Assembly (NCBI GenBank): GCA_038087875.1
Contig: CM075987.1
Span: 22,942,001-23,006,000, forward strand
Origin: Malacoraja senta
Taxonomy: Eukaryota
Reading direction: 5' to 3'
DNA: 64,000 bases
Both the position numbers and the translations under genes were made by a program. The notes below the pieces were generated by a model. The model was given only the letters and a program-made list of their open reading frames with translations, searched no databases and had not been told where the DNA came from. Below, piece after piece: positions 3,031 to 61,340 of this stretch (positions are counted from its first letter, which is position 1; each line of letters starts with the position of its first letter).

Positions 3031-3054
3031 TCGGAAAGGTAGAGATAAAGGAAA

Positions 3055-3275
3055 GTATGTAGGAGGAAGCTGCAAATGTTGGTTTAAACCAAAGATAGAC
3101 ACAAAATGCTGGAGTAACTCAGTGGGACAGGCAGCATCTCTGGACAGAAGGAATGGGTGACGTTTCGGGTTGAGACAGTCTGGAGAAGGGTCTAGACCTG
3201 AAACGTCACCCTTCCCTTCTCTTCCGAGATGCTGCCTGTCCCGCTGAGGTACTCCAGCATTTTGTGTCTATCTGA
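3055..3275. mobile_element. Penelope-derived fold-back repeat
   Basis: GACACAAAATGCTGGAGTAACTCAG...CTGAG.TACTCCAGCATTTTGTGTC inverted arms. Confidence 0.75.
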
Positions 3276-6835: not shown

Positions 6836-7012
6836 GGGACACTTTGTCATTTTGTGGGCGACGACTGTTTTGGAAGACCTGCTCCCCACTGAAAGGGTTC
6901 ACACTCACATCTACCACCAACACACTAACAGTCAGGCAGCGGAGCGGCTCCAAGGGCAGTGGAACTGTCCTTCAATACTCCAGCAGCCTCTCGTCCCGGC
7001 AGTACCTTAACG
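6836..7012 (+). CDS. ADAMTS13: ADAMTS13 exon, CUB1 C-terminal half
   Basis: accag|GG GAC...AAC G|gtaggt, 177 nt; DTLSFCGRRLFWKTC...TNTLTVRQR...VLQYSS. Confidence 0.88.
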
Positions 7013-7515
7013 GTAGGTGCTCAGATGGTTGGGTATCAGGTTGATGGCTTTCTAAGGAGCATTGTGGCTCTGTGAGTTACCTGAAGCGATGGGCTTGAAT
7101 TTAACCCCATACTGGAACCCAAAATGTAGTTTGACACCACCAGTGCCATTAGAAGGAGAACTGCTCTGCTGTAGGTGCTGCCCTTAGGAAGAGATGTCAA
7201 GCCTGTGCCTTGTCCTCCATCTCAGATGAATTTAAACAATCTCAACATATTATTGTTTGAAGTCCACGGATCCTCCTTGGTGTCCTGACCAATATCAGTG
7301 AGAGATATCTGCAATTCCTTCCTAAAGAAAAGATTGTTGTTCGTTATGGTTAAAAAACAAGCATGGAGTAAAGATGAATAAAACTGAGAGTTGTGATTAA
7401 AAAGTGCAACCACTCCAGGTGTCACTACTTCAGTCAATAACATGTCTGAGTAGATAATTTACCATGGATTGAACTCCAGTATTCACTCACTGAACTGATG
7501 TTTTCCTTTTTGCAG

Positions 7516-11086: not shown

Positions 11087-11231
11087 ATGCCGAGCTCGGA
11101 GGACGCCAGCGCCGAGCCCGGGGCCGAGGATGCGGCCGTGGCCGGTTCGGCGCAGGGCGGCGGCGGCGGCGACGGGATGACCTGGTGGTATCGCTGGCTG
11201 TGCCGGTTCGCGGCTGTGATCGGCGGGGTGT
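11087..11231 (+). CDS. CACFD1: CACFD1 (Flower) exon 1, copy A
   Basis: MPSSEDASAEPG...DGMTWWYRWLCRFAAVIGGV carries the Flower motif MTWWYRWLCR; donor GTG T|gtgagt, phase 1. Confidence 0.9.
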
Positions 11232-12550
11232 GTGAGTACCCGGGGCCGGTGCGGGAGCGGGGTGTGTGAGTACCCGGGGCCGGTGCGGGAGCGGGGTGTG
11301 TGAGTACCCGGGGCCGGTGCGGGAGCGGGGTGTGAGTACCCGGGGCCGGTGCGGGAGCGGGGTGTGAGTACCCGGGGCCGGTGCGGGAGCGGGGTGTGTG
11401 AGTACCCGGGGCCGGTGCGGGAGCGGTGCGGGGTGTGTGAGTACCCGGGGCCGGTGCGGGAGCGGGGTGTGAGTACCCGGGGCCGGTGCGGGAGCGGGGT
11501 GTGTGAGTACCCGGGGCCGGTGCGGGAGCGGGGTGTGTGAGTACCCGGGGCCGGTGCGGGAGCGGTGCGGGGTGTGTGAGTACCCGGGGCCGGTGCGGGA
11601 GCGGTGCGGGGTGTGTGAGTACCCGGGGCCGGTGCGGGAGCGGGGTGTGTGAGTACCCGGGGCCGGTGCGGGAGCGGTGCGGGGTGTGTGAGTACCCGGG
11701 GCCGGTGCGGGAGCGGTGCGGGGTGTGTGAGTACCCGGGGCCGGTGCGGGAGCGGGGTGTGTGAGTACCCGGGGCCGGTGCGGGAGCGGTGCGGGGTGTG
11801 TGAGTACCCGGGGCCGGTGCGGGAGCGGTGCGGGGTGTGTGAGTACCCGGGGCACGGGGCCGGTGTGGGGTGTGTGAGTACCCGGGGCCGGTGCGGGAGC
11901 GGTGCGGGGTGTGTGAGTACACGGGGCCGGTGCGGGAGCGGTGCGGGGTGTGTGAGTACCCGGGGCCGGTGCGGGAGCAGTGCGGGGTGTGTGAGTACAC
12001 GGGGCCGGTGCGGGAGCGGTGTGGGGTGTGTGAGTACCCGGGGCCGGTGCGGGAGCGGTGCGGGGTGTGTGAGTACACGGGGCCGGTGCGGGAGCGGTGC
12101 GGGGTGTGTGAGTACCCGGGGCCGGTGCGGGAGCGGTGCGGGGTGTGTGAGTACACGGGGCACGGGGCCGGTGTGGGGTGTGTGAGTACCCGGGGCCGGT
12201 GCGGGAGCGGTGCGGGGTGTGTGAGTACCCGGGCCGGTGCGGGAGCGGTGCGGGGTGTGTGAGTACACGGGGCACGGGGCCGGTGTGGGGTGTGTGAGTA
12301 CCCGGGGCCGGTGCGGGAGCGGTGCGGGGTGTGTGAGTACCCGGGGCCGGTGCGGGAGCGGGGTGTGTGAGTACCCGGGGCCGGTGCGGGAGCGGTGCGG
12401 GGTGTGTGAGTACACGGGGCACGGGGCTGGTGTGGGGTGTGTGAGTACCCGGGGCCGGTGCGGGAGCGGTGCGGGGTGTGTGAGTACACGGGGCCGGTGC
12501 GGGAGCGGTGCGGGGTGTGTGAGTACCCGGGGCTGAGGCCGGTGTGGGGG
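11224..12550 (+). repeat. GC-rich minisatellite (32-39 nt units) at start of CACFD1 intron 1, copy A
   Basis: Roughly 35 units of GTGAGTACCCGGGGCCGGTGCGGGAGCGG(TGCGG)GGTGT. Confidence 0.97.
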
Positions 12551-14210: not shown

Positions 14211-14410
14211 NNNNNNNNNNNNNNNNNNNNNNNNNNNNNNNNNNNNNNNNNNNNNNNNNNNNNNNNNNNNNNNNNNNNNNNNNNNNNNNNNNNNNNNNNN
14301 NNNNNNNNNNNNNNNNNNNNNNNNNNNNNNNNNNNNNNNNNNNNNNNNNNNNNNNNNNNNNNNNNNNNNNNNNNNNNNNNNNNNNNNNNNNNNNNNNNNN
14401 NNNNNNNNNN
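14211..14410. other. Assembly gap (200 N)
   Basis: Run of exactly 200 n. Confidence 1.
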
Positions 14411-14463: not shown

Positions 14464-14608
14464 ATGCCGAGCTCGGAGGACGCCAGCGCCGAGCCCGGGG
14501 CCGAGGATGCGGCCGTGGCCGGTTCGGCGCAGGGCGGCGGCGGCGGCGACGGGATGACCTGGTGGTATCGCTGGCTGTGCCGGTTCGCGGCTGTGATCGG
14601 CGGGGTGT
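14464..14608 (+). CDS. CACFD1: CACFD1 exon 1, copy B
   Basis: Same sequence as 11087-11231. Confidence 0.85.
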
Positions 14609-15600
14609 GTGAGTACCCGGGGCCGGTGCGGGATGGGAGCGGGGTGTGTGAGTACCCGGGGCCGGTGCGGGATGGGAGCGGGGTGTGTGAGTACCCGGGG
14701 CCGGTGCGGGGTGTGTGAGTACCCGGGGCCGGTGCGGGGTGTGTGAGTACCCGGGGCCGGTGCGGGATGGGAGCGGGGTGTGTGAGTACCCGGGGCCGGT
14801 GCGGGGTGTGTGAGTACCCGGGGCCGGTGCGGGGTGTGTGAGTACCCGGGGCCGGTGCGGGAGCGGTGCGGGGTGTGTGAGTACACGGGGCACGGGGCCG
14901 GTGTGGGGTGTGTGAGTACCCGGGGCCGGTGCGGGAGCGGTGCGGGGTGTGTGAGTACCCGGGGCCGGTGCGGGATGGGAGCGGGGTGTGTGAGTACCCG
15001 GGGCCGGTGCGGGAGCGGGGTGTGTGAGTACCCGGGGCCGGTGCGGGATGGGAGCGGGGTGTGTGAGTACCCGGGGCCGGTGCGGGGGTGGTGTGAGTAC
15101 CCGGGGCCGGTGCGGGATGGGGAGCGGGGTGTGTGAGTACCCGGGGCCGGTGTGGGGTGTGTGAGTACCCGGGGCCGGTGCGGGATGGGAGCGGGGTGTG
15201 TGAGTACCCGGGGCACGGGGCCGGTGTGGGGTGTGTGAGTACCCGGGGCCGGTGCGGGAGCGGTGCGGGGTGTGTGAGTACCCGGGGCCGGTGTGGGGTG
15301 TGTGAGTACCCGGGCCGGTGCGGGAGCGGGGTGTGTGAGTACCCGGGGCCGGTGCGGGAGCGGTGCGGGGTGTGTGAGTACCCGGGGCCGGTGCGGGATG
15401 GGAGCGGGGTGTGTGAGTACCCGGGGCCGGTGCGGGAGCGGTGCGGGGTGTGTGAGTACCCGGGGCCGGTGCGGGAGCGGTGCGGGGTGTGTGAGTACCC
15501 GGGGCCGGTGCGGGATGGGAGCGGGGTGTGTGAGTACCCGGGGCCGGTGCGGGAGCGGTGCGGGGTGTGTGAGTACCCGGGGCCGGGGACGGTGTGGGGG
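14601..15600 (+). repeat. Minisatellite copy B (different VNTR allele)
   Basis: Same core but shorter; contains GCGGGATGGGAGCGG and 29-nt unit variants that I did not see in copy A. Confidence 0.95.
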
Positions 15601-20487: not shown

Positions 20488-21341
20488 TAAGTACCTGCAC
20501 GCAGCAGCCCTGCTCACTGTGGAAAGAATACCTTGAGGTCTTGTTTTGGGAGTGGGTTTATGTGCGCGGTTGAGCTTGTGTAATCCCCCACCCCACCACC
20601 TTGCAGGAAACTATCAGATTGGTTCTTATTCTCTATTACACTTAAAAGAAAAGATTGATCAATGTGCCAAAGAACAATATCAGAGCACCCATTCCCTGCT
20701 TCACCAACTGGGCCATTTTTGCCAATACCCAACTCCCTTCATGTGTTGTCCCCAATTAATCCCTTGGCTTCTCAAGTTCTTCTCTTACCCTAATGTTTCT
20801 TACTCCTCTTCCAATCGCAAGCTTTTTCCCCTGTCTGTTTGCTACCATCTGTATAATAAAAATACATGCAAAGAGTCTACGTTTACTTTTGGAATACATG
20901 ACTTTTGGAGTCTGTTTCATATGCTGTAGAAATTGCACTATCCTTGTAATAGTTTTACCTGTGATTTGTTTCGGAACCCTGCTCTCCATTTCCAGAGAGG
21001 AACCGTTTATAAAGTGTCTCTGAGGCAAGTTGCCTTGCGTCCTTTAGATTGGAAACGCAAGGAACTGTAGATGCTGGAATCTTGAGTAATTCAATGGGCC
21101 AGGCAGCAGGACATGGATGGGTGACATGTTGGGACCCTTCTTCAGACTGGGTGATGTTTCGGGTCAGAACCTTATTCAGACTCTGGCGACGTTTCAAGTC
21201 AGGACTCTTCTTCAGACCGTTCAAAGTGTCTTGGGCCCCGCCCTGAAACATCACCTCTCCTTGTCCTCCAGAGATGCTGGCTGATCCACTGAGTTACTCC
21301 AGCACTTTGTCTTTTACCTTCGATTAGGTGCGCCTTTAAGG

Positions 21342-25894: not shown

Positions 25895-26120
25895 TGTAGA
25901 TGGACACAAAATGGTGGAGTAACTCAGCGGGTCAGGCAGCATGTCTAGAGAGAAGGAATGCGTGATATTTCAGGTCGAAACCCTTCTTCAGCCTGAAGAA
26001 GAGTCTTGACTCAAAACGTCACCTATTCCTTCTCTACAGAGATGCCGCCTGACCCGCTGAGTTACTCCACCATTTTGTGTCTATCGTCGGTGTAAACTAA
26101 CATCTGCAGTTCCTTCCTAC
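25895..26120. mobile_element. Penelope-derived fold-back repeat in CACFD1 3' region
   Basis: Inverted arms centred at CTTCTTCAGCCTGAAGAAG. Confidence 0.75.
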
Positions 26121-27065: not shown

Positions 27066-30000
27066 ATCAACTGCCTATACCGATGCTGCAAAGTTCTGAC
27101 TCTGTACCAGTTTCCATCCTGCTCTGTTTTCTATGCTCCATCACTGACACTTCCCCTCCCTAGCTGTTTCAGGAGTTAGGTGAACAAACAATATTCACCG
27201 CGGTGCTAATGTGAGGTCACTGATTTCTTCATGAGTACCGGCTGACCCGCTAAATATTTACATATTTTCTGTTCACTTCAGAATTGATTCTCCAGCAATA
27301 TTTAATTCAATTCTTGAATTTCTTCAGGGAAAAGGTCATGTAACATGTACAGACCCGACTGCACCGGGAGATCCGAATGCACCTTTATACAGATGACTTA
27401 TAACTCAGTTCCATTGAATATCCAACACACTATCAAGATCTAGATTTGTTCCAGGATATCTCCCTCAACACCAGCAGTGATAACTCGCCAATCCTTTACA
27501 TGCTGTCATCTTCCTCTACAAACATAATCTGGAGTATCTTTGGATTGTACAGGAAAGGGAAAAAGACACACACACAATCTTTTGGAGTATGAGTGAGTTT
27601 TTATTAGGAAAAGCGAAACAATTCTTATCTAGAGGATAGTTTGGTTTGGCCGTGATACAACCCATAGTACACTAGCTGCTGCCATCTTTAGGGCAGTGGC
27701 CAGTTGATTAAAATACAGGGTTTGAAGTAAGGTGTTTTTTAGGAGAATAGCTTGAAGCCGTACAAGCTGATTTTGTTTTTTTCAAGGTCCAGTAATTCTG
27801 GATCATTGTGTATGTTAAAGAATGCATGCTGGATGTGACTAACATGACTTGAGACGAGTCAAAGCTTGACTTGTGCTCTGTGCGTGCTAGCACAACTTAT
27901 AAGGGAATTCTCCAGCTCCTCCATTGCACAGCTGACAAACATTTGTCCAACATTCTGTGACTTTGTTCCACGTGTTAATTTGTTTCTCCCCTCGGATGGC
28001 AATAATTTACTCAATGTCACCACTACATGTTAGCACCACTCCTTAGCCTTTCCTTTGTCTATCTGAACTTTTGTCTTTGCCTCAACCATAAATCCTGGGA
28101 ACAGATAACACCGAAGACAGACACAAAATGTTGGAGTAACTCAGTGGGTCAGGCAGCATCTCTGGAGGAAAATGAATAGGTGAAGTTTTGGGTCAAGACC
28201 CTTCTTCAGACTGATTCCTTTTCTTCAGAGATGCTGCCTATCCTGCTGAGTTACTCCAGCATTTTATAAACAATATGTGCAGGAGTAGGCCATTTGGCCC
28301 TTTGGGCCAGCACTGCCATTCAATGTGATCATGGCTGATCATCCACAATGATGTCTGTCAAAGACATATCTTTTGTGTCTGTCTTCGATGCAAACCAGCA
28401 TCTGCAGTTTCTTCCGACACAGAATAGATAACACTGTCCGTTTTATAACGGTTTCCTGTGTTCTAAACCTCTTGGGTTTAACCAATAGCCCCGGAATTAC
28501 TGGGAGTTGTCTATTGTCCTCTTATACGGGTGTCATAAGCAAAACCAAGGCAAAATCTTAACGGGCAGCGTTCTGGGGAATCAGTGCTGGACTCTCATTC
28601 CTCTTATGTTTTACATTATGGAGCTCAAAATTGCACACAGTCCTTCAACTTGAGCCTCAGTTTTGTACACCTGCCTCATTTATTTATATTCTGCTCCTTT
28701 TATTTGTGACGAGTCCTCCACAAAGGCATGCTGATGCTGCGTTTGCTGTGGTATACTTAGGGTTAAGCAGAGCTGTGGACACTGGCCTCACTGGGAATTA
28801 CTTCACACACAAAATCTGCCGGGTTTGGCTGGGCCGTCTCTAGTGCGATGTTTAGTGTTGGCCGATTGTTCAATGCCGGTTTCACCTCTCAGGTTTTTTT
28901 TAGCGCAAGTTCTATTCTTCTGAGCATTACCATTGGGGATATCAGGAGGCTATGGGCCCCTTAATTGATGCTGACTTTAAATAGACCAGGACTGATCAGA
29001 ATGGTTTCCTTAGACCTGGCCGATAAGAGTGGATACATCCGGTGCTTGGGAAGGGGATAAAATTGGCCAGCGCTCTGGTTCCTAATTGTGTGAGTGAGGG
29101 ATGCAAATCACACCCCGAACAACACTTTGCAAAGATTTTGTTTGGAAAAGCACAAAGACAGTGCTTCTATTAATCCATTCTTGGACACATCTTGCAACCT
29201 GAAGGAATGGAGAGGCAAATGTTGGCCAGATGGGTAATAGTCTTTGGGATTTGGTCAGATTCTGGGTCAGCAATAATTGGAAACCGATCATAAATAGTTG
29301 TACATTTTAGAGTTTTAGTTTGTATTGGCATGTGTCTATTTAAATACAATGGATATTTTATATATTTTGTCCATTTCTGACCATTTACTGTGAAATAAAA
29401 AATGTTACTGCACTCTTGTTATAGTCATAAAATACGGAAACTGGCACTTGAGCCCACTACGCCTATTAGCCAACCATCGGCACTAACCGGCCTCTATGGC
29501 GTGAGAATTTGGATGCTCAAAAAGATGTGGAAATGTTCTGAGCGCACCTGGCCCCATCACCTTCTCAGGCTGTGCATTCCACATCGCAGGTTTACAAATA
29601 AAATCCTCAGATTCCCTCTAACCCCTGTATTCCTACCTTACATCTGCACCCTCTGATTTTAGACATATCTGCTATTGAAGGAAGGTTCCCACTATCCATC
29701 CTGTCTATGCCATCCATAAGTGACATGGTTAATTCAGAGACTAAGGTCCTGAACGTGAATAAAGGACATTTTGAAGGTATGAAGAGATGGGAATTGGCTC
29801 GGATAGACTGGCAAATTATACTTAAAGGGTTGACAGTGGAGATGCAATGGCGAAGCTTTAAGGAGTCGCATGAATGAACTCCAGAAATTGTTCATCCCTG
29901 TCTGGTGGAAAAATAAAACTGGGAAGGCGGCCATCACTGAACAGCAATCGCCCCATATGCTAACACTATCTTACACATGAGGGATAATTTTACAATTTCC

Positions 30001-36824: not shown

Positions 36825-37946
36825 CTGGCAGGGAGACAGAGCCACAAGCTCACGTTGGAAGAACAGGGAAAGACAGAGAGCTTGGCTTTTATACACCACC
36901 GAGGCACTAGGAACTGCAGATGCTGGAGTCGTGAGCAAAGGATGAAGCGCTGGAGGAACTCAATGGGTCAGGCAGGGTCTTTGGAGGGAATGGGGTAGGC
37001 GGATCAGGACTCTTCTTCAAACTGGTTGGCGCTGGGGGGGGGGGGGGAGAGAAACTGGAAGAGAGGTGAGGGTGGGACAAATCCTGGCAAGTGGTAGTTA
37101 GGTGGGTACAGGTGAGGCTGCCAGGCTTTGTCCTGCCCCCACCTCTTCTTCAGCTTCTCCCTCCCCCAACTAAAACCAGTCTGAAGATGGGTCCCGACCC
37201 GCCAGTCCATTCCCTCCACAGATGCTGCCTGACCCGCTGAGATCCTCCAGTTTCACTTTATGCAACAATGAAGTACTTCCACAGCGTAGAATGCGGAACA
37301 AGCGGCCAACACTGACAAGGATCCACAAGCAGTGATGGGAGAACTGTTCAGATGATCCATGTAGCCATCGTGTTCCATGGAGACATCGAAGCCCCTTATT
37401 GCTTCCTAAAATGGTCGCTTCGGAACCCAGATCGGCCTTCATTCACAGGCTTCATTCACATACAGTGGTATTCCCCCTGTGTACAACATCATCTGTCCCC
37501 AGTGTGCAGGGAGTGGATGGGAAAGTGCGATAACACAGAACATAAAGCTTTTTTTTCACCGTACCTCGGTGCACGTGAGAATAATAACCCAAACTATACT
37601 AAACTAGTGTGAACGGGGTGATCGATGGCCAGCATGGACTCGGTGGGCCAAAGGACCTGTTTTCATGCTGCATCTTTCAATTAATCAATCATTTATGCTC
37701 ACAGATCACCCACGAAACTCTTTGAATGTCAGAGACTAATGACCCGAACTTTGTTTCTTGATGCTTCTGTTTGCTCTGGGCTGTGTGCAGTGGGAGTGGA
37801 TGTGAAGGGGTTTGGTACACGAGGAGTCTATTGACATGGATGGTGGTTTGGGGGAAGATGGCAGGGCTGCTGATTCCCTTCGCTATCCGTGCTTCACCCG
37901 GCAATTCAGGAAAGGAAGCCCTTCCCAACGGGCCATTCCCACTTAC

Positions 37947-38158
37947 GTCCTTGTTCAGGGATTCAGCGATCTTCCTGTACTCCTGCAGGTAATCGGAATC
38001 CGATCCTCGAAGCCACATGAGGGCTTGGAGGGCTTCGTAATCGCGCTCTTTGGAGATTAAATAGCGAGGAGTCTCCGGCATGAAGCACATGACGATAATT
38101 AATACTGCCGGTATAATTGCCCCGACAGTAGCTAGCCAACGCCATGACAAGACCAAGT
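37947..38158 (-). CDS. SLC2A6: SLC2A6 exon 5
   Basis: 212 nt; LSWRWLA...FMPETPRYLISK...ALQALMWLRG. Confidence 0.94.
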
Positions 38159-38239
38159 CTGAAAAACAACAACAGATCTCAGGTCAGTTTTACACTTGAA
38201 TCTCTGATCTCCTTTCCCCATTACTAACACAAACTGCAG

Positions 38240-38572
38240 AGGGTTACATATTGCGCTTGGGCAGCTAACACCCCAGCGGTATGAATATTGACTCCTCTAA
38301 CTTCAAATAACTCTTGCTTTCCATCTCTCCCCCTTCCTAGATCGCCGACAGTCTTAACTGTCCCCGATTACATTTTATCTTTGTATGTGTCCTTATCACA
38401 ATCATCTATTCTACATCTTCCTCGATCTACATTGTCTTTGATGTCTATGTGTCTCCCTCTCCCCTGACTCTCAGTCTGACGAAGGGCCTCGACCTGAAAC
38501 GTCACCCATTCCTTCTCTCCAGAGATGCTGCTGCCTGCCCCGCTGTTACTCCAGCATTTATGTGTCTATCTT
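38240..38572 (+). mobile_element. Penelope-like element 3' end (ORF C-terminus, UTR, hammerhead motif)
   Basis: RLGS*HPSGMNIDSSNFK* followed by CTGACGA...GAAACGTC at about 38476. Confidence 0.7.
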
Positions 38573-39036
38573 GGGTTACAATTAAATAGTTTTTCACATG
38601 CTTTGCTCTTTGCTCCCAGTGTAGAACAACCCTTAGAACACTTTACTTTGCCTCAGGAAAGCAGCCACAAAATCAAGGACCCTTTACACACCAGTTATCC
38701 CCTCTTCTCCCCTCGCCATTTGGGCAGAATATACAAAAGCTTGAAAGCACATATCACCGCTTCCCTTTTATGTTCAGACTTCTGAAGGGAGCTCCCCAAA
38801 ACTGGGCTGTAATCCCCATCTCCCAGCCAACCTCATTGCAGTCGTCGCACTTTTAAAAAAAAAATCTGCACTTTCCCTGTAGCTGTAACACTATATTCTG
38901 CCTTCTGGTGCTTTTCTGTTGGCTGTGCCTGTTGCACTTGTGCGTGGCTTGATATACGGTATGATTTGGCTGGATAGCACACAAATATCTCGACGCATCT
39001 CAATACTAAGCAACACCAATGTGCAGAATTCCTCAC

Positions 39037-39169: not shown

Positions 39170-39605
39170 AGGAAGCAACTGTGGATGCTGCTTTACACCG
39201 AAGACGGACACAAAGTGCTGGAGTAACTCAGCGGGTCAGGCAGCATCTCTGGAGAAAGGGAATAGGTGACGTTTCGGGTAGAGACCCTTCTTCAGATTGA
39301 GAGAGAAACTAGAGCTATTAAAAAGTACAGAACAGATAAGAGTCGGCACCAATGGCCCAGGAGCCCACAATGGTCCATTGTTCCCTGTGAAGGAGGTGAT
39401 AACAAAGAGATATGAACAGTGAAACTAGCAGGACAACTAGGTTGGGGGATGGACGGAGAGAGAGGGAATACAACGGGAACTGGAAATTAGAGAAATCAAT
39501 ATTCATACTGCTTCCTCCAATTTGCATTGGGCCACACTCTGACAGTGGAGGAGGCCCAGGACAGAAAAATCAGTATGAGAATGGGAAGGGGAATTGGCAA
39601 CCAGG
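39170..39605 (-). mobile_element. Penelope-like element 3' end
   Basis: MNIDFSNF C-terminal motif followed by hammerhead-like motif and the shared terminal repeat. Confidence 0.7.
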
Positions 39606-40995
39606 AGATCGCGTTCACTTAGCAACCTGGTGTCCAGCAGGGGTTAGTGGGAGCTGCCACCATTTTGGGTTGGAACCATCGGTGTCACAGGTGGGCAGCA
39701 TGTAGCATAGAGGGCAGGAGCCGCACAGCTCGTATAAACCCAGTTGCTCTGCAGATATTCCAAGTTATTGTTCTCAACATATCTGGTGTTCCCCATGGTT
39801 CAGTGACCTGAGATATAGTCTACTCGAGAGACCTGAAAGCAAAATCCAGGCTGGTAGACCAAATACAGTTCAGAGGGAACTATCTTTAATCGGACTTTAT
39901 CAGACTTTAATGTTATATCTTGCACTAAACATTCTACCCTTTATCCTTTAACTGTGCACTGTGGATGGCTTAATTGTATTCATGGGTGGTCTTCTTCACT
40001 GGATAGCACACAGTCAAAGGCTTTTCACTGCACCTTGGTGCACTAAGCTAAACCTATTGAGGGGTGGCATATACAGCAGACTGCACAAACAGTGGGGCAG
40101 TACTGAGGGAGTGCCACAGAGGGGCAGTACTGAGGGAGTGCCTCACTGATTTACCTCAGCTGGTAGAGCCTCTGCCTCACAGCACCAGAGACCTGGGTTC
40201 AATCCCGACCTCGGGTGCAGTCTGCGAGGAGTTTGCATGTTCTTCCAGTGACTGCACGGGTTTCCTCCCACATCCCCAATAGTGTAGGTCGGTCGGTTAA
40301 TTGCCACTAAAAACTGCCCCTGGTGTGCAGGCAAGTGGATATTGTTATAGCTACAGAGAAAGTGCAGATTAAAAAAGTGCGTGGACCTTAATGAGGTAGG
40401 TTGGGAGATGGGGATTACAGCCCAGTTTATGAGAGTTTCCTTCAGAAGTATGATGGGTAAGTAAATGCAGGTCTCGCTGAAAATGTTGGGAGCAAAATAA
40501 TGGGATGAATGGAGGATTCAATGTTTGGCATGGACTCAGTTCCATACAGGCCTGCTTCTATATCTCACTATGCATCTAACCTGGTATCTAACTCTGGAGA
40601 GATGGGCGGCATGATGATGCAGTGGTAGAGTTGCTGCCTCACAGCGCCAGATACCAGGTTCGATCCTGATTACGGGTGCTGTCTGAAGGGAGTTTGTACG
40701 TTCTCTCTGTGACCTGTGTGGGTTTTCTCTGAGATTTCCGATTTCCTCCCACACTCCAAAAGCGTACAGGTTTGTAAGTTAATTGTCTTGGTATAATTGT
40801 AAATTGTCCCTAGTGTGGGTAGGGTAGCGTTAGAGTGCGGGGATGGCTGGTCGGCGCGGACTTGTGGGCCAGGTTCCGCGCTGTATCTCTCAACTAAACT
40901 GTAAACTAAACCCTCTCAGGCTGGCCGCTCCCCAACATTGCACGAGATCGCAAGGCAAGCTTGGATCCATGTTTCTCAGGGATTTAGCGACTTAC

Positions 40996-41202
40996 CGGGA
41001 TAGAACTGGCAGACATTCCCCCTGCGAAACCGGTCAAGGCACGGCCCAGTTCAAGCATCCATCTTGTCTTGGCGCCGCCCATCAAGGCAAAGCCCAAAGC
41101 AGAGGGCATGGCAGACACCATAATGGTCAACTTGCGACCCAACAGGTCATTGAACAACATGGCGCTGAGTCCACCCAGGACGGCCCCCAGGTTGAAGACA
41201 GA
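40996..41202 (-). CDS. SLC2A6: SLC2A6 exon 3
   Basis: 207 nt; SVFNLGAVLGGLSAMLFNDLLGRKLTIM...GRALTGFAGGMSASSIP. Confidence 0.95.
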
Positions 41203-41504
41203 CTGTAAAACAAATAGACACAAGGAACTGCAGATGCTGGTTCATGAAAAAAGACACAAAATGCTGGAGTGGAAGAGGTTGAGCAGGCTGGGAATCCATT
41301 TCTTGGAGCGCAAGAAGATGAGGGGTGATCTTATAGAGGTGTACACAATCATGAGAGGAATAGATCGGGTAGATACACAGAGTCTCTTGCCCAGAGTAGG
41401 GGAATCGAGAACCAAAGTTTAAGGTGAGAGGGGAAAGATTTAATAGGAACCTGAGGGATAACCTTTTCACACAGAGGGAGGTGGGTGTACATTAATACAT
41501 AGAC

Positions 41505-42521: not shown

Positions 42522-42684
42522 CTCAAACCATGCTCCAGAACGGTCATTAAGTTGGAGGTCAGGGTCTAGAGAGTGTTCCAGTTCTGGGACCACAGGCGAA
42601 GTGTACACCAAGGCATAACCAAAGCTTAGGTTTCCCAGCACAGCGGTGAAGACGGCCAGGATCATCCATCTGTTATTCACCGGC
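42522..42684 (-). CDS. SLC2A6: SLC2A6 exon 2
   Basis: 163 nt; AVLGNLSFGYALVYTSPVVPELEHSLDPDLQL closely resembles human AVLGNFSFGYALVYTSPVIPALERSLDPDLHL. Confidence 0.94.
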
Positions 42685-42755
42685 CTCCAATCAAAATGTG
42701 GATTGGCCTCTCAGTCAGCTAGACCCTCGAGCCTTCGCACTCCAGTCCAGGGTCA

Positions 42756-42787
42756 GTCTGAAGAAGGGTCTCGACCCGAAACGTCAC
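42756..42787 (+). ncRNA. Putative minimal type I hammerhead ribozyme within Penelope-derived repeat
   Basis: GT-CTGAAGA-A-GGGTC-TC-GACCC-GAAA-C-GTC-AC: CUGANGA and GAAA cores, helix II, palindromic ACGT, GUC cleavage triplet. Confidence 0.65.
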
Positions 42788-43899
42788 CCATTCTTTCTCT
42801 CCACAGATGCTGCCCGTCCCGCTGAGTTACTCCAGCATTTTTGTGTCCATCCAGGATTTACACCGCCCTCTCCCTCGTTTATGGAGACACAAGGAACTGC
42901 AGATGCTGGAATTCTGCGTTAAAACTCAAAAGTGCTGGAGGAACTCAGCGGGGCAGACAGCGATGGTCAGGCAACGTTTCGGGTCGGGACCTTAGATCTA
43001 CTGTGTTGAGGCCAGGCACCAGCTCTCAGACACCTCCTCATATCTACCCCTCCTCCTTTGTTATGGTTGCTCATCTTTTACTCATGTGCGTCCAAGTCCA
43101 TTGTTTCAGCCACTCCCCATGGCCGTGAGTTTGTTTCTCATCACTATCCAGTAAAAACATTTCTCCTTCACTCCCTGGTAGAATATTGATGACTATCATC
43201 TATTCACTGCCTCTTGTATTACATTCCCACAATGTTTCTACATCTACCCTGTTGACATTTTTAATGACCATGACGATCTCCACTAGATGATTCAGTGGCC
43301 TTTTATTGAGGAAGCGTGCTCATTATCTGCATTCCTTTCTAATCTCTCAGTTCCTGTCACAATTGCACAAGTATTTTTTAAATACAGCTTCTCAAAAGCC
43401 TCCCCAATCCGTTTTTAATATCAAAACTAGAACTGTGCACATGGTTAACGTCTCTGCTCTTCAATGTGACTTTTCTCGATATAGACCCAATGGTTTAGGT
43501 GTGTGGTTGAAGGGTTTATTTAACTTAGTTATTACTTTCAGCAACTTGGGAATCTGTGCCCCGCGATCCTCTTCCCCATTTGCACAGAGCTCTTGAGTTA
43601 TGTGTGGTGTCCCTGTTCCTGCTGCTGTAGACATCACCTCACCCTCACTTGCACTGCACACCATAACCATGTGAACATTTCATTATTGCCTATCTTCCTT
43701 CACCGTAGAACATAGAAGAGTAGAGCACAGGAACAGGCCCTTTGACCCAAACGTGTGCGCTGAACTTGATCCCAGGTTAACCTAATCTCCCCACCCTCAC
43801 GTGATCCGTATCCCTCCCTTCTCTGCATATCCATGTGCCTATCCAAGAATGCCACCATCGTATCTGCCTCCCTCACCACCTGAAGTAGGATGTTCCAGG

Positions 43900-46005: not shown

Positions 46006-46272
46006 TCAACATCAAAAGCGCAAAACAAAAAACTTTCTTGATATACCTTGATATACAGTATACCTTCAGTCTGAAGTAGGGTCTCGGCCTGAAACGTTAC
46101 CCATTCCTTCTCTCCAGAGATGCAGCCTGTCCCGCTGTTACTCCAGCATTTTGTGTCTAACTTTCTTGATATATCTAGTTTTTTTGAAAGCATTACATTT
46201 ATGAGGTACTTTAAAAAAAATTCAGTCGTTCCTAATTTCATCTGATTTTGAAAGGCTGTTTCTAGTTCTTAC

Positions 46273-48860: not shown

Positions 48861-50689
48861 AATCAAAGTACTGTAGGTGGAGAGGATCCTTCTGAAGATG
48901 GGGTCCCAAGCCGAATCTATCATCTATCCATGTTCTCCTGGGATGCTGCCTAACCCGCTGAGTTACTCCTGCATTCAACATCTTCCATCTTTCCTTGGTA
49001 ATAGAAGATGTTGACTTGGGAATAAAGTTACATCAAACTAAACAGGATCCCCAGGAAGATCAAGAAAGATGCTGGAATCGTGAGTGGGCTACAAAGTGCT
49101 GGAGTAACTCAGCAGGTCAGGCAGTATCCGTGGAGGGAATGGACAGCTGGCTTTTTGGGTTGGTACCCTTCTTCCTCTCGAGATGCTGTCTGACCTCCTG
49201 AGTCACTCCAGATCCCCGTGAATGTCCCAACGCGTTCAGGAACCATTTGTATAGAAATTATAACATGTCAACCCTGCTCAGAATAAAAACAGGGTTTTTT
49301 TTCTCTTTCCCAGTCCCAAGACCATATTTCCATTCATATTCTCTTGATGTTATGATACTTTGTGTTTTCAATTAATAAATGTTGTTATCTGAATTAATCT
49401 GTGAAGAGATAGTAATAAGTTACTGGAATTCCCAGTTGCTGCACAACTCTGGTTAAGATTGTGAGTTACATGGGAATTTCTAATTCACACATATGTTTAA
49501 TTAGTGAATAATTTGAATTGGCATTTTGTGAAATAGTTTGAGAACACATTCAATGATACTTTGTGCCTAGGTACAGCGAAATGCTTTGATTTGCATAATA
49601 CCTGATAAAGATCGTACAACAGACCTCACCTAGGCAGCCACATGTCTGGCGAAGTTACAAAAGTTCACTAAAGGTTGGCTTGCCCTGCATCACCCACCTG
49701 TGTGGCATCATCCGGGGGGTGGCACAGTGACTGCGCAGAACTGATTAGATGTGAATGAGCCAACCTACCGTGGACACACATGGGCAAGTGGCACAGGCAT
49801 GTCTCTCGATGTCTGAAGAAGGGTCTCGACCCGAAATGTCACCCATTCCTTCTCTCCGGAGATGCTGCCATACTCCCGCTGAGATACTCCGGCATTTTGT
49901 GTCTACCTGTCTCTCGAGCATATACATTGTGCAAAGGTTGATGTGGCCAAGAGAGAGACATCTGTTTGTGCCGTCAATGTCCTGACAGAAGCCTAAAAGA
50001 GAAGCCGGCTTTAAAATGATAACATTTGTCAAAATATATGGCTATTCTTCGGTCGGGAGTAACGAAAAGGGATGGAGATTTGGGATTGACACGGTTGAAG
50101 ACAAAAGAGAAGCAATACTACACAATGAACGTCTCGGAGGTAGAAATGTTTAGAAAAAAAACAACAACAAATAGTCATTTATGACTGTGTATTTTGGGAC
50201 CTTATGATTTTCTTTGTTGGCATAGTATTTACAGTATATTTAATTGAGAAACTAAGGAAGTAACCATATGCTCCAGAAATGGCTAATCTCCGAGGAGCAA
50301 CCATTCCATCACTCACCAAGGTTGCAGTGACCAGTACATCCTTGCGATGTGGGAGGAACCCAGGACAACCTGAAGCACTGGGAGAAAATGTCAACTCCAC
50401 ACAAACTGAACCAAGGTGGGGACTTGAATCTGGGTTACTGGAGCCCTGAGGCAGTAGCTCTACAAGGTGTACCTTTATTGCAGCTCGTAGATCAATCTTG
50501 TGATTACATTTACTTGTGATCTTCTTTGGTGCATCTTGTGCCTCAGTGACATGTGTTGTGTCAATAATTGTGAAACTATTGTACTCCTGGGGAAACGTAC
50601 CATGTGTTTCCTCGTGTCTCACCATTTTATGTATTTATTATTGCCAAAGAAGAACTATTTCTTCTGCAAGATCTTGAAGATATGGTGCC

Positions 50690-51530
50690 TGGTGATGGTG
50701 GTGATGAGTCAGAGTATAGAAGAGAGATCGAGCAACTGTCCATATGGTGCCAGCACAACAACTTGGCCCTCAACACCAGCAAAACCAAGGAACTGATTGT
50801 GGACTTTGGAAGGAGTAGGATGGGGACCCACAGTCCCGTTTATATCAATGGGTCGATGGTTGTAAGGGTCAAGAGCTTCAAATTCCTGGGCGTGCACATC
50901 TCTGAAGATCTTTCCTGGTCCGAGAACAATGATGCCATTATTAAGAAAGCACATCAGCGCCTCTACTTCCTGAGAAGATTACGGAGAGTCGGTTTGTCAA
51001 GGAGGACTCTCTCTAACTTCTACAGGTGCACAGTAGAGAGCATGCTGACCGGTTGCATCGTGGCTTGGTTCGGCAACTTGAGTGCCCTGGAGAGGAAAAG
51101 ACTACAAAAAGTAGTAAACACTGCCCAGTCCATCATCGGCTCTGACCTCCCTTCCATCGAGGGGATCTACCACAGTCGCTGCCTCAAAAAGGCTGGCAGC
51201 ATCATCAAGGACCCACACCATCCTGGCCACACACTCATCTCCCTACTACCTTCAGGTAGAAGGTACAGGAGCCTGAAGACTGCAACGACCAGGTTCAGGA
51301 ACAGCTACTTCCCCACAGCCATCAGGCTATTAAACCTGGCTCGGACATAACACTGAACTTTACTAGCCAATACTGTTATTTGCACTTTATCAGTATATTG
51401 ACCATTGTGTATATATTTATAGAATGCCTTGTAGTAAATGCCTGCTATGTTCTGTTGTGCTCAAGCAAAGCAAGAATTTCATTGTCCTACCAGGGACACA
51501 TGACAATAAACTCACTTGACTTGACTTGAG
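50690..51530 (+). mobile_element. Rex1/Babar-like LINE, 5'-truncated, open C-terminal frame
   Basis: WCQHNNLALNTSKTKELIVDF...FKFLGVHISEDLSW...KKAHQRLYFLRRL...FYRCTVESMLTGCI...TTRFRNSYFPTAIRLLN; AATAAA followed by (CTTGA)n tail. Confidence 0.9.
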
Positions 51531-51564: not shown

Positions 51565-51780
51565 TGTGTAGGAAGGAACAGGTGCTGGTTTAAACCAAAG
51601 AAAGACACAAAACGCTGGAGTAACTCAGCAGGTCAGGCAGCATCTCTGGAGAGAAGAAATGTGACATTTCGGGTCGAGACCCTTCTAGGTCTGAAGAAGG
51701 GTCTCGACCCGAAACCTCACCTATTCCTTTTCTCCAGAGATGCTGCCTGACCTGCTGAGTTACTCCAGCTTTTTGTGGCA
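51565..51780. mobile_element. Penelope-derived fold-back repeat
   Basis: Inverted arms centred near 51688. Confidence 0.75.
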
Positions 51781-59144: not shown

Positions 59145-61096
59145 TAGAGCCAGGATTTTACCATGTGCCTTTTCGTGCCTTTTTTGATGATTTCACCAAG
59201 ATAATGCCTTTTTCACGATCGAGTGCCTAAATCAGCCTTTTTTTGCCGTTTTGCTAAAAGGTCGTGCTATTTTCTCTAGTTGCACCGTGATTACAATGAA
59301 GTTTTCGATGTTAACACGTTAATATTAATGTCATTATTAACGTGTTAACATAGTATCTTGCAAGAAAATTTCCACCACCGGGGCAAAATCAGGGGCGCCA
59401 CCGTCGGTCGTTCATTCGTTCGTGCCGCTGCCCGCTGGTTCAGTCTTCTCCAAGATCTATTTAAGAAAGAACTGCAGATATTGGAAAAATCTAAGGTATA
59501 CATAATATGCTGGAGAAACTCAACAGGTGAGGCAGCATCTATGGAGAGAAGGAATAGGCGACGTTTCAGGTCGAGACCCTTCTTCAGACTGATGTGGGGG
59601 AGGGGTGGGGGGCAGGAAAAAGAAAGGAAAAGCGGAGACAGTAGGACTAGAAGGAGAGCTGGGAAAAGTGAGGGGGAGGGGGGAAGAAGACAAGGGCTAT
59701 CTAAAATTAGAGAAGTCAATGTTGATACCGCTGGGGTGCAGACTACCCAAGCGAAATACCCAAGCTTGTCTCCTCACTACATTTACTGCTGGCTCCAGTC
59801 GCAAATCTGAGTTTTCGAGTGATCTTTGCAAGGCATTCATTGATGCTGGAATTCCACTGTGGAAATTGGAAAACAATTCTCTCACAGGTTTTTTTGAGAA
59901 ATACACAGAGGAACATAGACCAAGCAAGTCGTCATTACGGAAAAATTATGTTGACAGCAACTTCAACATTGTTGTGCAGAAAATTAGAGATGAAGTTGCA
60001 TGCAAGTATTTGTTGACATCAGACGAATTGGAGAAGTCAAACAGCTCAACTATTGCTCAGTTGTTTACATCTTCACTTGCTGTATTTTGGCCAAAAGGTA
60101 TAAAACACGATAATGTTCTTCTCTTTGTGACTGATGCAGCTCCGTACATGAAAAAAGCTGCTCATGCTCTTAAAGTTTTATTCCCCAAAATATTGCATTT
60201 GACATGCTTAGCTCAAGGACTTCATAGAATTGCCAAGCACATACGTAGCTTGTTTCCAAATGTCGATCGCCTAGTTTCCAATGTCAAGAAAATCTTCTTC
60301 AAAGCACCGTGACGTGTGCATTTGTTCAAGGAAATGGCACCCGAGATTCCGCTACCTCCTCAGCCTGTTTTGACTAGGTGGGGTACATGGCTCTCTGCTG
60401 TACTCTACTATGCTGCAAATTTTGAAAAGATAAAAGAAATCGTCAACTGTTTTGAAGAAAAATCTGCTGCAGTCAGGATCGTGCAGTGAAATCGTGCAGA
60501 AAAAGTCCCTCCTCCGCGACCTTGTGGTTATTGCTTCCAATTTTGCAAACTTCCCACAAGTTATCACTTCCCTTGAGAAACGTGGCGAAACATTAATGAA
60601 TAATTTGCAGGTTTTCAACAAAGTAACTGACGATATCCGTAAAATTCCTTGCGATGTAGGTAAAGATATGCAAGGAAAATGTGAGAGGGGGATTTTAGCT
60701 AACAAAGATCTTGAAGAAATACAAAACATAGCTAAAGTTCTCAAAGGTAATTGTTATGCACAAGATATCGATATAAATATAGAGTCTGTAGCTTGTTTCG
60801 GGTATGCACCAGTGACCTCAGCTGAGGTAGAAATAAGTTTTTCACAACTGAAGCATATTCTGTCTGACAGATGGCATAGTTTAACACCAGATAATTTGAT
60901 AAAAAATTATGTGCAACCAGACAACTTTGGTCATTTAATGTAGTATACCTTTATATTATCATTTTTAACCATATTTTGGTGGAAATAAATGCCTTTTTAT
61001 GCCTTTTTGGGTCAATAAATGCCCTTTTCGTAATTTTATTATGCCTTTTTGCCTGCCTATTTCAGAGTTTTTTAGCGCCTAAACATCCTGGCTCTA
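59145..61096 (+). mobile_element. Defective hAT transposon (DUF659/CGGBP-like transposase pseudogene at about 59760-60940)
   Basis: TIR TAGAGCCAGGAT / ATCCTGGCTCTA; degenerate 8-bp TSD TTTACAAC/TTTCTAAC; VTDAAPYM...TCLAQGLH...TRWGTWL...PVTSAEVEISFS; stop at 60310 and frameshift near 60480. Confidence 0.88.
59460..59760 (-). mobile_element. Penelope-like 3' end nested in the hAT element, with hammerhead motif
   Basis: VFRLGSLHPSGINIDFSNFR*, then on the minus strand CTGAAGAAGGGTCTCGACCTGAAACGTC. Confidence 0.75.
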
Positions 61097-61124
61097 TTTC
61101 TAACACAATGATAAGACACGTAAA

Positions 61125-61340
61125 ATAGACACAAAGTCCTGGAGTAACTCAGCAGGCCAGGCAGCATCTCCGGAGAAGGAATGGATGACGTTTCTGATCA
61201 AGACGCTTATTCAGACTGAAGAAAGGTCTCGACCCGAAACGTCACCCGTTCCTTCTCTCCAGAGATGCTGCCTGTCCCGCTGAGTTACTCCAGCATTTTG
61301 TTTCTATCTTCGGTGTGAACCAGCATCTGCAGTTCCTTCC
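61125..61340. mobile_element. Penelope-derived fold-back repeat
   Basis: Inverted arms centred on TTCAGACTGAA at about 61215. Confidence 0.75.

What the first reader, a model, noticed from the sequence alone, without database searches (positions are those of the whole stretch)
42756..42787. Minimal hammerhead-ribozyme motifs dispersed through the window in Penelope-derived repeats
Seen: an abundant repeat family carries CTGA(A/C)GA-A-[helix II]-GAAA-C-GTC. The best copy is here; variants occur near 3180, 25993, 31025, 38476, 46071, 49813, 51691 and 61216 (+) and 21185, 39266 and 59560 (-). Helix II shows paired changes (GGGTC/GACCC, GAGTC/GACTC, GAGTC/GACTT). At 38240, 39170 and 59460 the motif lies downstream of a Penelope ORF C-terminus (NIDFSNF). 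Established: Penelope-like elements carry minimal type I hammerheads whose palindromic helix III is thought to require dimerisation. Inference: this genome holds very many such motifs, several in sense orientation within host introns.
Basis: partly seen in the sequence, partly recalled or inferred. Interest (0 to 1): 0.75.

Follow-up and report, generated by a model that had tools for sequence, protein, structure and literature searches.

The report
Minimal hammerheads in Penelope-like repeats
The window is peppered with short, mostly dead tail-end copies of a Penelope-like jumping gene, each carrying the small self-cutting-RNA (hammerhead) motif typical of such elements, so the catch is correct but of an already described kind.

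Summary
The motif is real. Window 42758-42785 (+) reads CTGAAGA-A-GGGTCTCGACCC-GAAA-CGTC. The loose pattern hits 6 times against 0 in 100 shuffles. The genome (1.94 Gb) holds 34,187 matches against 0 for the reversed control.

It opens a ~95-100-nt module with 47 copies in the window, 22 of them in head-to-head pairs. Three window copies, and many copies elsewhere in the genome, continue upstream into the end of an ORF (…NIDFSNFR*). [quoted passage not shown]

The motif meets the published marks of the Penelope "minimal hammerhead": full core, extra base after A9, G10.1-C11.1, and a loop-less palindromic ACGU stem III. Helix I is only 2 bp.

Cleavage is untested, and the predicted fold disfavours the active dimer.

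This is a new member of a known kind. The scan noted the same kind before on other DNA.

In passing, the same genome holds a second, telomere-embedded GIY-YIG Penelope-like family with a complete monomeric hammerhead.

The parts
42758..42785 (+). Best copy of the minimal hammerhead: C3-A9 CUGAAGA, extra A, helix II GGGU/ACCC with loop CUCG, G12-A14 GAA, A15.1-C15.2-G16.2-U16.1 (ACGU), C17. The predicted cut lies between 42785 and 42786.
42753..42853 (+). Whole ~100-nt tail module of this copy: hammerhead plus downstream hairpin AUGCUG..CAGCAU. The flanks are unique.
   Evidence: Public contigs of 4 runs cover 42753-42841 only.
38247..38573 (+). Longer 5'-truncated PLE fragment: last ~20 codons of the ORF (…MNIDSSNFK*, stop at 38308-38310), 3'UTR, and an intact motif at 38476-38503.
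39200..39596 (-). Longer PLE fragment with the ORF end (NIDFSNF at 39503-39483) and an intact motif at 39295-39268. It lies in an intron of the minus-strand sugar-transporter gene, in sense orientation.
59486..59758 (-). Longer PLE fragment with the ORF end (…GINIDFSNFR*, 59723-59697), a C-rich tract and an intact motif at 59587-59560. It is embedded in a larger repeat that also holds hAT-like ORFs.
61122..61312 (.). Head-to-head inverted pair of modules joined at TTCAG-A-CTGAA. The right arm has an intact motif at 61216-61243.
21081..21312 (.). An inverted arm (21233-21312, +) followed on the minus strand by three tandem ~35-nt hammerhead units (about 21217-21115) and the tail. Only the first unit (21215-21188) has an intact core.
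25897..26088 (.). Head-to-head inverted pair. The + arm carries GAGUC/GACUC in helix II but also G12>A.
51598..51780 (.). Head-to-head inverted pair. The + arm motif at 51691-51718 has G16.2>C.
3091..3275 (.). Head-to-head inverted pair. The + arm motif at 3180-3207 has A6>G.
28112..28267 (.). Head-to-head inverted pair. The minus-arm motif at 28209-28182 has G12>A and G16.2>T.
49810..49908 (+). Solo module. The motif at 49813-49840 has C15.2>T.
46066..46163 (+). Solo module with a damaged core (A9>T).
37689..38183 (-). Open frame holding a host exon. It matches Pfam Sugar_tr profile positions 169-238.
40984..41241 (-). Open frame holding a host exon. It matches Pfam Sugar_tr profile positions 50-125, upstream exon of the same gene.

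Best explanation
The motif is the minimal type I hammerhead (min-HHR) carried in the 3' tail (pseudo-LTR region) of an endonuclease-positive Penelope-like retroelement (PLE) with a Neptune-type CX4CX2C linker.

Shown:
- The window holds 47 copies of the ~100-nt tail module. They are overwhelmingly dead-on-arrival 5'-truncated copies.
- About half are joined head to head with a second truncated copy, as is usual for PLE insertions.
- A few copies reach back into the ORF end.

Inferred from the family and not shown here:
- In the source elements, the hammerhead of one tail pairs with a second copy through the palindromic ACGU. The second copy comes from a tandem pseudo-LTR, a neighbouring tandem unit or a second RNA.
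- That pairing builds a shared helix III and two active sites.
- Each site cuts 3' of GUC (here after 42785) and so trims PLE transcripts.

The dispersed copies themselves are under no detectable selection. About half of those listed have lost a core base.
For: Motif and abundance. The exact 28-mer occurs 18,728 times in the genome; the looser pattern 34,187 times against 0 for the reversed control.

Carrier element:
- A GIY-YIG Pfam search of the genome finds ORFs ending …FRLGSLHPSGMNID(FSNFR)*, with the motif ~100 nt downstream.
- The 541-aa open frame P0002 hits RVT_1 (E 2.3e-5) and GIY-YIG (E 3.5e-4).
- P0002 aligns over 519 residues (29% identity, E 5e-64) with the 759-aa RT-GIY-YIG ORF P0004.
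- The linker CNRRKCYTC and the block LIYCIRCSRCQLLYIGET…H…H are read directly.

PLE insertion habits described by Craig et al. 2021 (PMC8557442, passages) are all seen:
- 5' truncation.
- Inverted 5'-truncated partners: 11 pairs, 22 of 47 hits.
- An optional ~35-nt tail extension.

Min-HHR marks from Cervera & de la Pena 2014 are present:
- An extra base between A9 and 10.1.
- G10.1-C11.1.
- Palindromic 15.2-16.2 with no loop 3.
- The published vertebrate alignment shows the same CUGAAGAA…CGUC layout.

Conservation: across 143 copies, the 12 non-CpG core columns average 0.942 identity and none is below 0.90. The other 60 non-CpG module columns average 0.867, with 11 below 0.80 (Mann-Whitney one-sided p 0.003).

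Other families: a second, unrelated-looking PLE family of the same genome has a complete hammerhead with different helices at the analogous place. A metagenomic relative has a min-HHR with GCCA/UGGC and a 5-bp helix I.
Against: - There is no covariation. Genome-wide counts for pair 10.2-11.2 are G-C 18,728, A.C 604, G.U 552 and A-U 17, against 17.8 expected from independence. In 78 gap-free sampled copies, most helix II changes break pairs or are CpG decay.
- Helix I has only 2 contiguous pairs (GU/AC, or GU/GC in the CpG-intact form). All vertebrate examples I saw in the 2014 alignment have 3 or more.
- Nearest-neighbour folding prefers another pairing, GAAGAAGGGU with ACCCAUUCUU. The monomer MFE is -10.2 and the dimer MFE -29.5 kcal/mol, against -6.1 for the double-hammerhead fold.
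- Rfam 15 gives no hammerhead hit at gathering score or at E<=10. It also misses the complete hammerhead of the second family, so this weighs little.
- No copy starts at the predicted cleavage product: 0 of 47 blastn hits begin at query positions 457-461.
- Among the 150 best-scoring ORF-end matches, the longest open frame is 541 aa. No intact full-length source copy was seen.
Confidence: 0.8

Rival explanations
1. The ~95-nt units are not random truncations. They are a discrete non-autonomous retroposon, a solo-tail 'mini-retrozyme' made of hammerhead plus 3' hairpin, copied by the PLE enzyme from a short RNA. That RNA's 5' end lies 5 nt upstream of CUGA, at an initiator-like TCAGTC.
For: - In 104 kb chosen without regard to the motif (window plus L057-L060), 17 of 47 hits to a 551-nt ORF-end-plus-tail query start at query positions 425-430, just before C3 at 431. 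Only 4 reach further upstream into the ORF end.
- In 5 of 9 distinct inverted pairs, at least one arm runs exactly to this boundary. That is what a snap-back at the 5' end of an RNA template would give.
- Contigs of four public runs show the same left edge at 42753-42756.
- Tandem 35-38-nt hammerhead units exist.
- Li et al. 2026 (bioRxiv 10.64898/2026.07.22.740005; abstract and passages) derive animal retrozymes from PLE pseudo-LTRs.
Against: - A variable C-tract lies just upstream in full tails. It could stall reverse transcription or break alignments at that point.
- No transcript start was observed.
- This reading is compatible with the best explanation and is not exclusive of it.
Confidence: 0.35
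2. The sequence is a structured piece of the PLE tail that serves recognition or priming by the reverse transcriptase. It keeps hammerhead-like letters by descent but no longer cleaves.
For: - A competing stem is predicted to be far more stable than the active fold.
- Helix I is 2 bp, and there is no covariation.
- Cervera & de la Pena 2014 report very low in vitro activity of min-HHRs.
- Craig et al. 2021 note that PLE clades without hammerheads proliferate well.
Against: - All 13 core and cleavage-site letters, the bulged A, G10.1-C11.1 and the ACGU palindrome are kept.
- Core columns are the least variable of the module.
- The second PLE family of the genome keeps a textbook three-way junction.
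Confidence: 0.15
3. The hammerhead consensus arose by chance in an abundant repeat unrelated to ribozymes.
For: Only about 13 fixed letters plus a 4-bp hairpin are needed. Rfam models do not see the motif.
Against: - The repeat is the tail of a PLE, the one class of retroelement known to carry exactly this variant.
- It has the class-specific extras (bulged base, loop-less palindromic stem III).
- Related PLEs carry the same core with other helices.
Confidence: 0.03

Closest known systems
Minimal hammerheads (min-HHR) in the pseudo-LTRs of metazoan Penelope-like elements (Cervera & de la Pena 2014, PMC4209133; main-text parts 1-2 and supplementary file 2 read)
   Same: - CUGAAGA core with an extra base before helix II.
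- G10.1-C11.1.
- GAAA followed directly by CGUC, with no loop 3 and palindromic ACGU.
- Location behind the RT-GIY-YIG ORF.
- Thousands of mostly solo copies, some on opposite strands 100-700 bp apart.
- Low expected monomer activity.
   Different: - Helix I is 2 bp here. It is 3-6 bp in the vertebrate rows of the published alignment.
- Helix II is 4 bp with a CUCG/UUCG loop, shorter than the 6-8 bp called typical. 4-bp examples such as Nematostella (2) are in the alignment.
- The family is very uniform, unlike the 'extreme variability' reported.
- No cartilaginous-fish or similar entry was found in the supplementary file I could search. File 1 was not searchable.
Small hammerhead variants of PLEs that cleave as dimers (Lunse, Weinberg & Breaker, RNA Biol; not held; known to me only through the review PMC6765202, passages)
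   Same: Very short palindromic stem III, type I layout, and a dimer requirement linked to the tandem arrangement of PLEs.
   Different: The paper was not read, so I cannot say whether this sequence family is among their variants.
Drosophila virilis Penelope hammerhead variant (Cervera & de la Pena 2014)
   Same: [quoted passage not shown]
   Different: The D. virilis motif has a bulge inside helix II, a 2-nt insertion in helix III and an adjacent intron end. None of these is seen here.
Non-LTR retrozymes of animals (PMC7229834, abstract only; Li et al. 2026 bioRxiv, abstract and passages)
   Same: Non-autonomous hammerhead-bearing repeats related to PLE pseudo-LTRs. One Chondrichthyes genome in that survey has them.
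   Different: Retrozymes are tandem arrays of longer units (51-972 bp consensus, mean 363 bp in the Chondrichthyes genome) with classical type I hammerheads, and they give circular RNAs. Here the units are dispersed solo or inverted copies, with only occasional 35-38-nt tandem units.

Membership tests
PLE minimal hammerhead (min-HHR) | Catalytic core C3-U4-G5-A6-N7-G8-A9 … G12-A13-A14, A15.1-U16.1, H17 | tested here: met
PLE minimal hammerhead (min-HHR) | One unpaired nucleotide between A9 and 10.1 | tested here: met
   There is an A at 42765. Alignment column 14 is 0.96 conserved.
PLE minimal hammerhead (min-HHR) | G10.1-C11.1 closing pair of helix II | tested here: met
   G42766 pairs with C42777. 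In 78 gap-free copies the pair is G-C in 46 and G-U in 18, the latter from CpG decay of C11.1.
PLE minimal hammerhead (min-HHR) | No loop 3, with palindromic 15.2-16.2 so that helix III forms only between two copies | tested here: met
   GAAA is followed directly by CGUC, and ACGU is self-complementary.
PLE minimal hammerhead (min-HHR) | Helix I of about 4-5 bp next to the core | tested here: not met
   Only U2.1-A1.1 (or U.G) and G2.2-C1.2 are contiguous. Two more pairs follow after a 2x2 mismatch. The published vertebrate rows have 3 or more pairs; the D. virilis variant has 2.
PLE minimal hammerhead (min-HHR) | [quoted passage not shown] | tested here: not met
   Within this family there are 17 double mutants against 17.8 expected. 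Different helices appear only in other PLE families.
PLE minimal hammerhead (min-HHR) | Location in the pseudo-LTR or tail of a PLE | tested here: met
   The motif lies ~100 nt after the stop codon of RT-GIY-YIG ORFs and 77-110 nt before the element's end.
PLE minimal hammerhead (min-HHR) | Self-cleavage 3' of H17, as a dimer | not testable with these tools
   No raw RNA reads were on offer, and contigs cannot show ends. The energy model disfavours the active fold.
Endonuclease-positive Penelope-like element (carrier) | Reverse transcriptase followed by a C-terminal GIY-YIG nuclease, with CCHH cysteines between GIY and YIG | tested here: met
   - P0002 scores RVT_1 24.6 bits and GIY-YIG 21.3 bits, both just under the Pfam cut-offs.
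- GIY-YIG scores 32.1 bits, over the cut-off, at L013.
- LIYCIRCSRCQLLYIGET…H…H is read.
- P0002 aligns with P0004 at E 5e-64.
Endonuclease-positive Penelope-like element (carrier) | CX2-5CxxC linker before the nuclease (Neptune/Nematis type, as summarised in PMC8557442) | tested here: met
   CNRRKCYTC in P0001, P0002 and P0003. The clade was not placed by a tree.
Endonuclease-positive Penelope-like element (carrier) | Insertion units with 5' truncation, an inverted 5'-truncated partner and a 30-40-bp tail extension | tested here: met
   11 head-to-head pairs in the window, and two classes of 3' end that differ by ~35 nt.
Endonuclease-positive Penelope-like element (carrier) | Partial tandem (pseudo-LTR) in front of full-length copies | not tested
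   No full-length copy was found among the 14 ORF-bearing loci read (L031-L044).
Rfam hammerhead families | Score at or above the family's gathering threshold | tested here: not met
   There are 0 matches in the whole window, and no hammerhead family at E<=10 in 42650-42900.
Non-LTR retrozyme | Head-to-tail arrays of hammerhead-bearing units that give circular RNAs | tested here: inconclusive
   Only short arrays of 35-38-nt units were seen. Most copies are solo or inverted. RNA was not examined.

The most novel reading that the evidence does not exclude
The dispersed ~95-nt units may be a discrete vertebrate 'mini-retrozyme'. On this reading, a self-contained RNA made only of a dimer-dependent hammerhead and a 3' hairpin starts exactly at helix I, is copied by the Penelope-like enzyme, snaps back into inverted pairs, and has been amplified to tens of thousands of copies.

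Beside it, the same genome keeps a telomere-embedded, endonuclease-positive Penelope-like lineage with a complete monomeric hammerhead. Together these would show both ribozyme grades and both lifestyles of the superfamily in one vertebrate.
Probability: 0.3. Interest if true: 0.55.

Novelty: new member of a known kind. Interest (0 to 1): 0.3.

Why it matters
It adds one more vertebrate genome, and a very large and uniform family (at least 34,000 intact motifs), to the known link between Penelope-like elements and minimal hammerheads.

It also gives a clean negative control. In dead copies, paired-looking helix changes arise at exactly the rate expected by chance, so they should not be read as covariation.

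The sharp 5' edge of the units and the telomeric sister family are the parts worth a specialist's time.

Tried and rejected
- **Rfam.** The gathering scan of the window and the E<=10 scans of 42650-42900 and of the second family's hammerhead gave no hammerhead family. I judge this uninformative, because the textbook-shaped second hammerhead is missed too.
- **RNA evidence.** No RNA holder was listed. The four runs laid are contigs and cannot show starts, ends or cleavage. They only show that the module 42753-42841 occurs in thousands of contigs of four coded organisms, and that a 38-nt tandem joint exists.
- **Helix II covariation.** Rejected as evidence.
- **Dimer fold by energy model.** Rejected as support.
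- **Larger random genome sample.** Smaller ones were answered, so the unbiased sample is only the window plus 40 kb.
- **Lunse et al.** The paper is not held.
- **Earlier scan notes.** Look-ups by sequence and by place gave nothing.
- **SINE/LINE origin.** My first thought, a tail shared between a SINE and a LINE, was dropped once the ORF proved to be RT-GIY-YIG.
- **Literature.** Searches for cartilaginous-fish PLE hammerheads and for telomeric endonuclease-positive PLEs of vertebrates found no paper describing either. One sturgeon paper saw such elements without interpreting them.

Full report
**Observation.** Window 42758-42785 (+) reads CTGAAGA-A-GGGTCTCGACCC-GAAA-CGTC.
- The loose pattern CTGANGAN{6,30}GAAACGTC matches 6 times in the 64-kb window, on both strands, against none in 100 dinucleotide-preserving shuffles.
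- Nine sites lie within 3 mismatches of the best copy.
- The other 6 carry a change at a core or stem III position: 3180 A6>G, 25996 G12>A, 31024 CUGA lost, 46074 A9>T, 49813 C15.2>T, 51691 G16.2>C.
- In the whole 1.94-Gb assembly, the family pattern CTGANGAAGNGTYYYGACNYGAAACGTC occurs 17,118 + 17,069 times. The reversed control occurs 0 + 0 times.
- The exact 28-mer of the best copy occurs 18,728 times.

**What the repeat is.** The motif opens a module of about 95-100 nt.
- nhmmer with a profile of 14 window copies finds 47 copies in the window (26 on +, 21 on -). It finds 150 in the 356,848 bases then held, that is the window plus 60 loci.
- Twenty-two of the 47 window copies form 11 head-to-head pairs, for example 3091-3275, 25897-26088, 51598-51780 and 61122-61312. 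One arm is usually truncated at a variable point.
- At 21217-21115 (-), three ~35-nt hammerhead units stand in tandem.
- Three window copies (38247-38573 +, 39596-39200 -, 59758-59486 -) continue upstream through a 3'UTR into the last codons of an ORF, …(M/I)NID(F/S)SNF(K/Q/R)*.

**The carrier is a Penelope-like element.**
- A search of the genome with Pfam GIY-YIG gave 137 matches. One class ends …FRLGSLHPSGMNIDFSNFR* and has the motif about 100 nt downstream.
- A protein search with such an ORF end gave 105,766 first-look candidates. The 150 that were scored all had E <= 1.8e-93, and their longest open frame is 541 aa.
- That frame (P0002) and a 490-aa one (P0003) hit RVT_1 (E 2.3e-5 and 1.5e-5, under the curated cut-off). 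P0002 also hits GIY-YIG (E 3.5e-4).
- P0002 aligns over 519 residues with the intact 759-aa RT-GIY-YIG ORF P0004 of a second family (29% identity, E 5e-64).
- The linker CNRRKCYTC (CX4CX2C) and the nuclease block LIYCIRCSRCQLLYIGET…H…H can be read directly. Passages of Craig et al. 2021 (PMC8557442) give these as marks of the Neptune/Nematis linker and of PLE nucleases.
- No tree was built, so "Neptune-like" rests on the linker alone.
- The same paper describes PLE insertions as strongly 5'-truncated, often with an adjacent inverted 5'-truncated copy and an optional 30-40-bp tail extension. All three are seen here. The extension is the ~35-nt CGATTTTTCCAGCATCTGCAGTTC… piece, present at some 3' ends only.

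**Anatomy as a hammerhead.** In standard numbering:
- CUGAAGA is C3-A9.
- One extra A follows.
- Helix II is GGGU/ACCC (G10.1-C11.1), closed by CUCG, or by UUCG in a subfamily.
- GAA is G12-A14.
- ACGU supplies A15.1, C15.2, G16.2 and U16.1 with no loop, so it can pair only with a second copy.
- C17 is the cleavage nucleotide.
- The next base is G in the least decayed copies (GTC|GCC, a CpG). It has become A (GTCACC, as at 42786), or the C has become T (GTTGCC), in others.

Cervera & de la Pena 2014 (main-text parts 1-2 and supplementary file 2 read) name these as class marks of PLE minimal hammerheads: the extra base, G10.1-C11.1 and the palindromic 15.2-16.2. Their vertebrate alignment rows (Takifugu, Xenopus, Latimeria, lamprey) have the same CUGAAGAA … CGUC layout.

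Two differences stand out:
- Helix I here has only two contiguous pairs (GU with AC or GC), against 3 or more in those rows.
- Helix II is 4 bp, at the short end of the published range.

**Tests bearing on function.**
1. *Conservation.* In 143 non-redundant copies, the 12 non-CpG core columns average 0.942 agreement with the majority base, and none is under 0.90. The other 60 non-CpG columns of the module average 0.867, and 11 are under 0.80 (one-sided Mann-Whitney p 0.003). The positions that differ between subfamilies avoid the core. The excess is modest, and the downstream hairpin (AUGCUG…CAGCAU) is about as well kept.
2. *Covariation.* For pair 10.2-11.2, the genome holds 18,728 G-C, 604 A.C, 552 G.U and 17 A-U copies in an otherwise identical 28-mer. 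Independence predicts 17.8. The 78 gap-free sampled copies say the same.
3. *Energy model.* The monomer prefers GAAGAAGGGU paired with ACCCAUUCUU (-10.2 kcal/mol). Two strands reach -29.5, while the double-hammerhead fold evaluates at -6.1. This argues against easy folding. It agrees with the very low in vitro activity reported for min-HHRs, and the model ignores the tertiary core.
4. *Rfam.* No hammerhead hit.
5. *RNA.* No raw RNA reads were available.
6. *Ends.* With a 551-nt ORF-end-plus-tail query on 104 kb not chosen by the motif, 17 of 47 hits start at query positions 425-430, one to six bases before C3. Four reach further upstream into the ORF end. None starts at 457-461, where a cleavage product would begin.

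**Other families.** A second PLE family of the same genome carries, between its units, a complete type I hammerhead at L051 2897-2962.
- Its ORFs are a 759-aa RT-GIY-YIG ORF (P0004) and an upstream 597-aa ORF (P0005).
- Helix I is 8 bp, the core is CUGACGA plus an extra A, helix II is GCUA/UAGC, helix III is 5 bp, and the site is GUC|G.
- The minimum-energy fold is exactly this three-way junction.
- A metagenomic relative of P0004 (48% identity, L062) has a minimal hammerhead with GCCA/UGGC, ACGU and a 5-bp helix I.

So the core, the extra A and G10.1-C11.1 recur with different helices across PLE lineages. This is the only compensatory evidence I have, and it is between families, not within the finding's family.

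**Mechanism.**
- Shown: the sequence, its abundance, its place in a PLE tail, and its insertion architecture.
- Inferred from the family (Cervera & de la Pena 2014; review PMC6765202, passages): two copies pair through ACGU, each active site cuts after C17, and this trims PLE transcripts that start in an upstream pseudo-LTR.
- Open: whether this 2-bp-helix-I variant cuts at all, and what makes the sharp 5' edge of the solo units.

For that edge, a short RNA beginning at the initiator-like TCAGTC would explain both the edge and the snap-back pairs. A stall at the upstream C-tract is the dull alternative.

**Comparison and verdict.** This is a member of the PLE min-HHR class in a genome and family that I did not find in print.
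- Searches.
- The 2014 supplementary file 2 has no shark, skate or Callorhinchus entry. File 1 could not be searched.
- A 2026 preprint reports retrozymes in one Chondrichthyes genome.
- That the animal may be a cartilaginous fish is my recollection of this repeat, plus earlier scan notes on similar DNA. It is not a result here.
- The scan has reported the same kind before on other genomes.

Its covariation argument fails, and its novelty is low.

Noticed in passing
L051 (G000:C5550:29000-37000) 115-7076; also L012, L014-L030, L048, L050, L052, L065 (G000:C17:1-3000): A second Penelope-like family sits in tandem arrays embedded in telomeric repeats.
- The unit is ~4.7 kb. It holds ORF-A (597 aa, weak GDSL-lipase hit, E 0.0025) and ORF-B (759 aa: RT, CX4CX2C linker, GIY-YIG at 27.2 bits, over the cut-off).
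- About 200 nt after ORF-B comes (CCCTAA)n on the sense strand, from 15 to more than 300 repeats. About 68 nt further on is a complete monomeric type I hammerhead.
- One array starts within 2 kb of the (CCCTAA)51 that opens a 12.4-Mb contig.
- Three of 4 metagenomic relatives carry (CCCTAA)2 on the sense strand, in two of them just after the ORF.
- Passages of Craig et al. 2021 place only endonuclease-deficient PLEs at telomeres. My searches found no paper describing a telomeric endonuclease-positive PLE of vertebrates. A sturgeon herpesvirus paper (PMC12031113, passages) saw GIY-YIG PLEs bounded by telomere-like repeats without interpreting them.
- Source calls: 18, 20, 38, 45, 47, 48, 67, 70-75, 80, 81.
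   Followed up: partly
window 42753-42756 and the same edge in other copies: The 5' ends of the tail module pile up 1-6 nt before the CUGA box, at an initiator-like TCAGTC. Inverted pairs are joined at this same edge.
   Followed up: partly
window 59593-60943 (+): hAT-like transposase remnants: DUF659 at E 3e-8 and the hAT dimerisation domain at E 0.004. The neighbouring PLE fragment and the antisense of these ORFs are part of one larger repeat. All 40 scored genome matches are 89-100% identical over ~300 nt, out of 5,998 first-look candidates.
   Followed up: partly
window 11223-12533 and 14600-15586: A G-rich 39-bp minisatellite (about 31 and 28 copies) lies on both sides of a 200-N assembly gap at 14211-14410. 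The flanking segments 13.0-13.2 kb and 16.05-16.2 kb are duplicated, including an inverted pair of the PLE module. Long open frames in several frames there are an effect of the repeat.
   Followed up: partly
window 37689-38183 (-) and 40984-41241 (-): Two exons of a sugar-transporter (Sugar_tr/MFS) gene lie on the minus strand. The rest of the gene was not mapped.
   Followed up: no
window 50574-51350 (+): An open frame with a Pfam ALKBH8_N match (E 1.2e-12). It was not examined further and may belong to another retroelement.
   Followed up: no
full tails, e.g. L039-L042 just upstream of the motif; window 59600-59640 (-): A C-tract of roughly 10-25 bases, variable in length, lies between the 3'UTR and the hammerhead in the longer copies. 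Its role is unknown.
   Followed up: no
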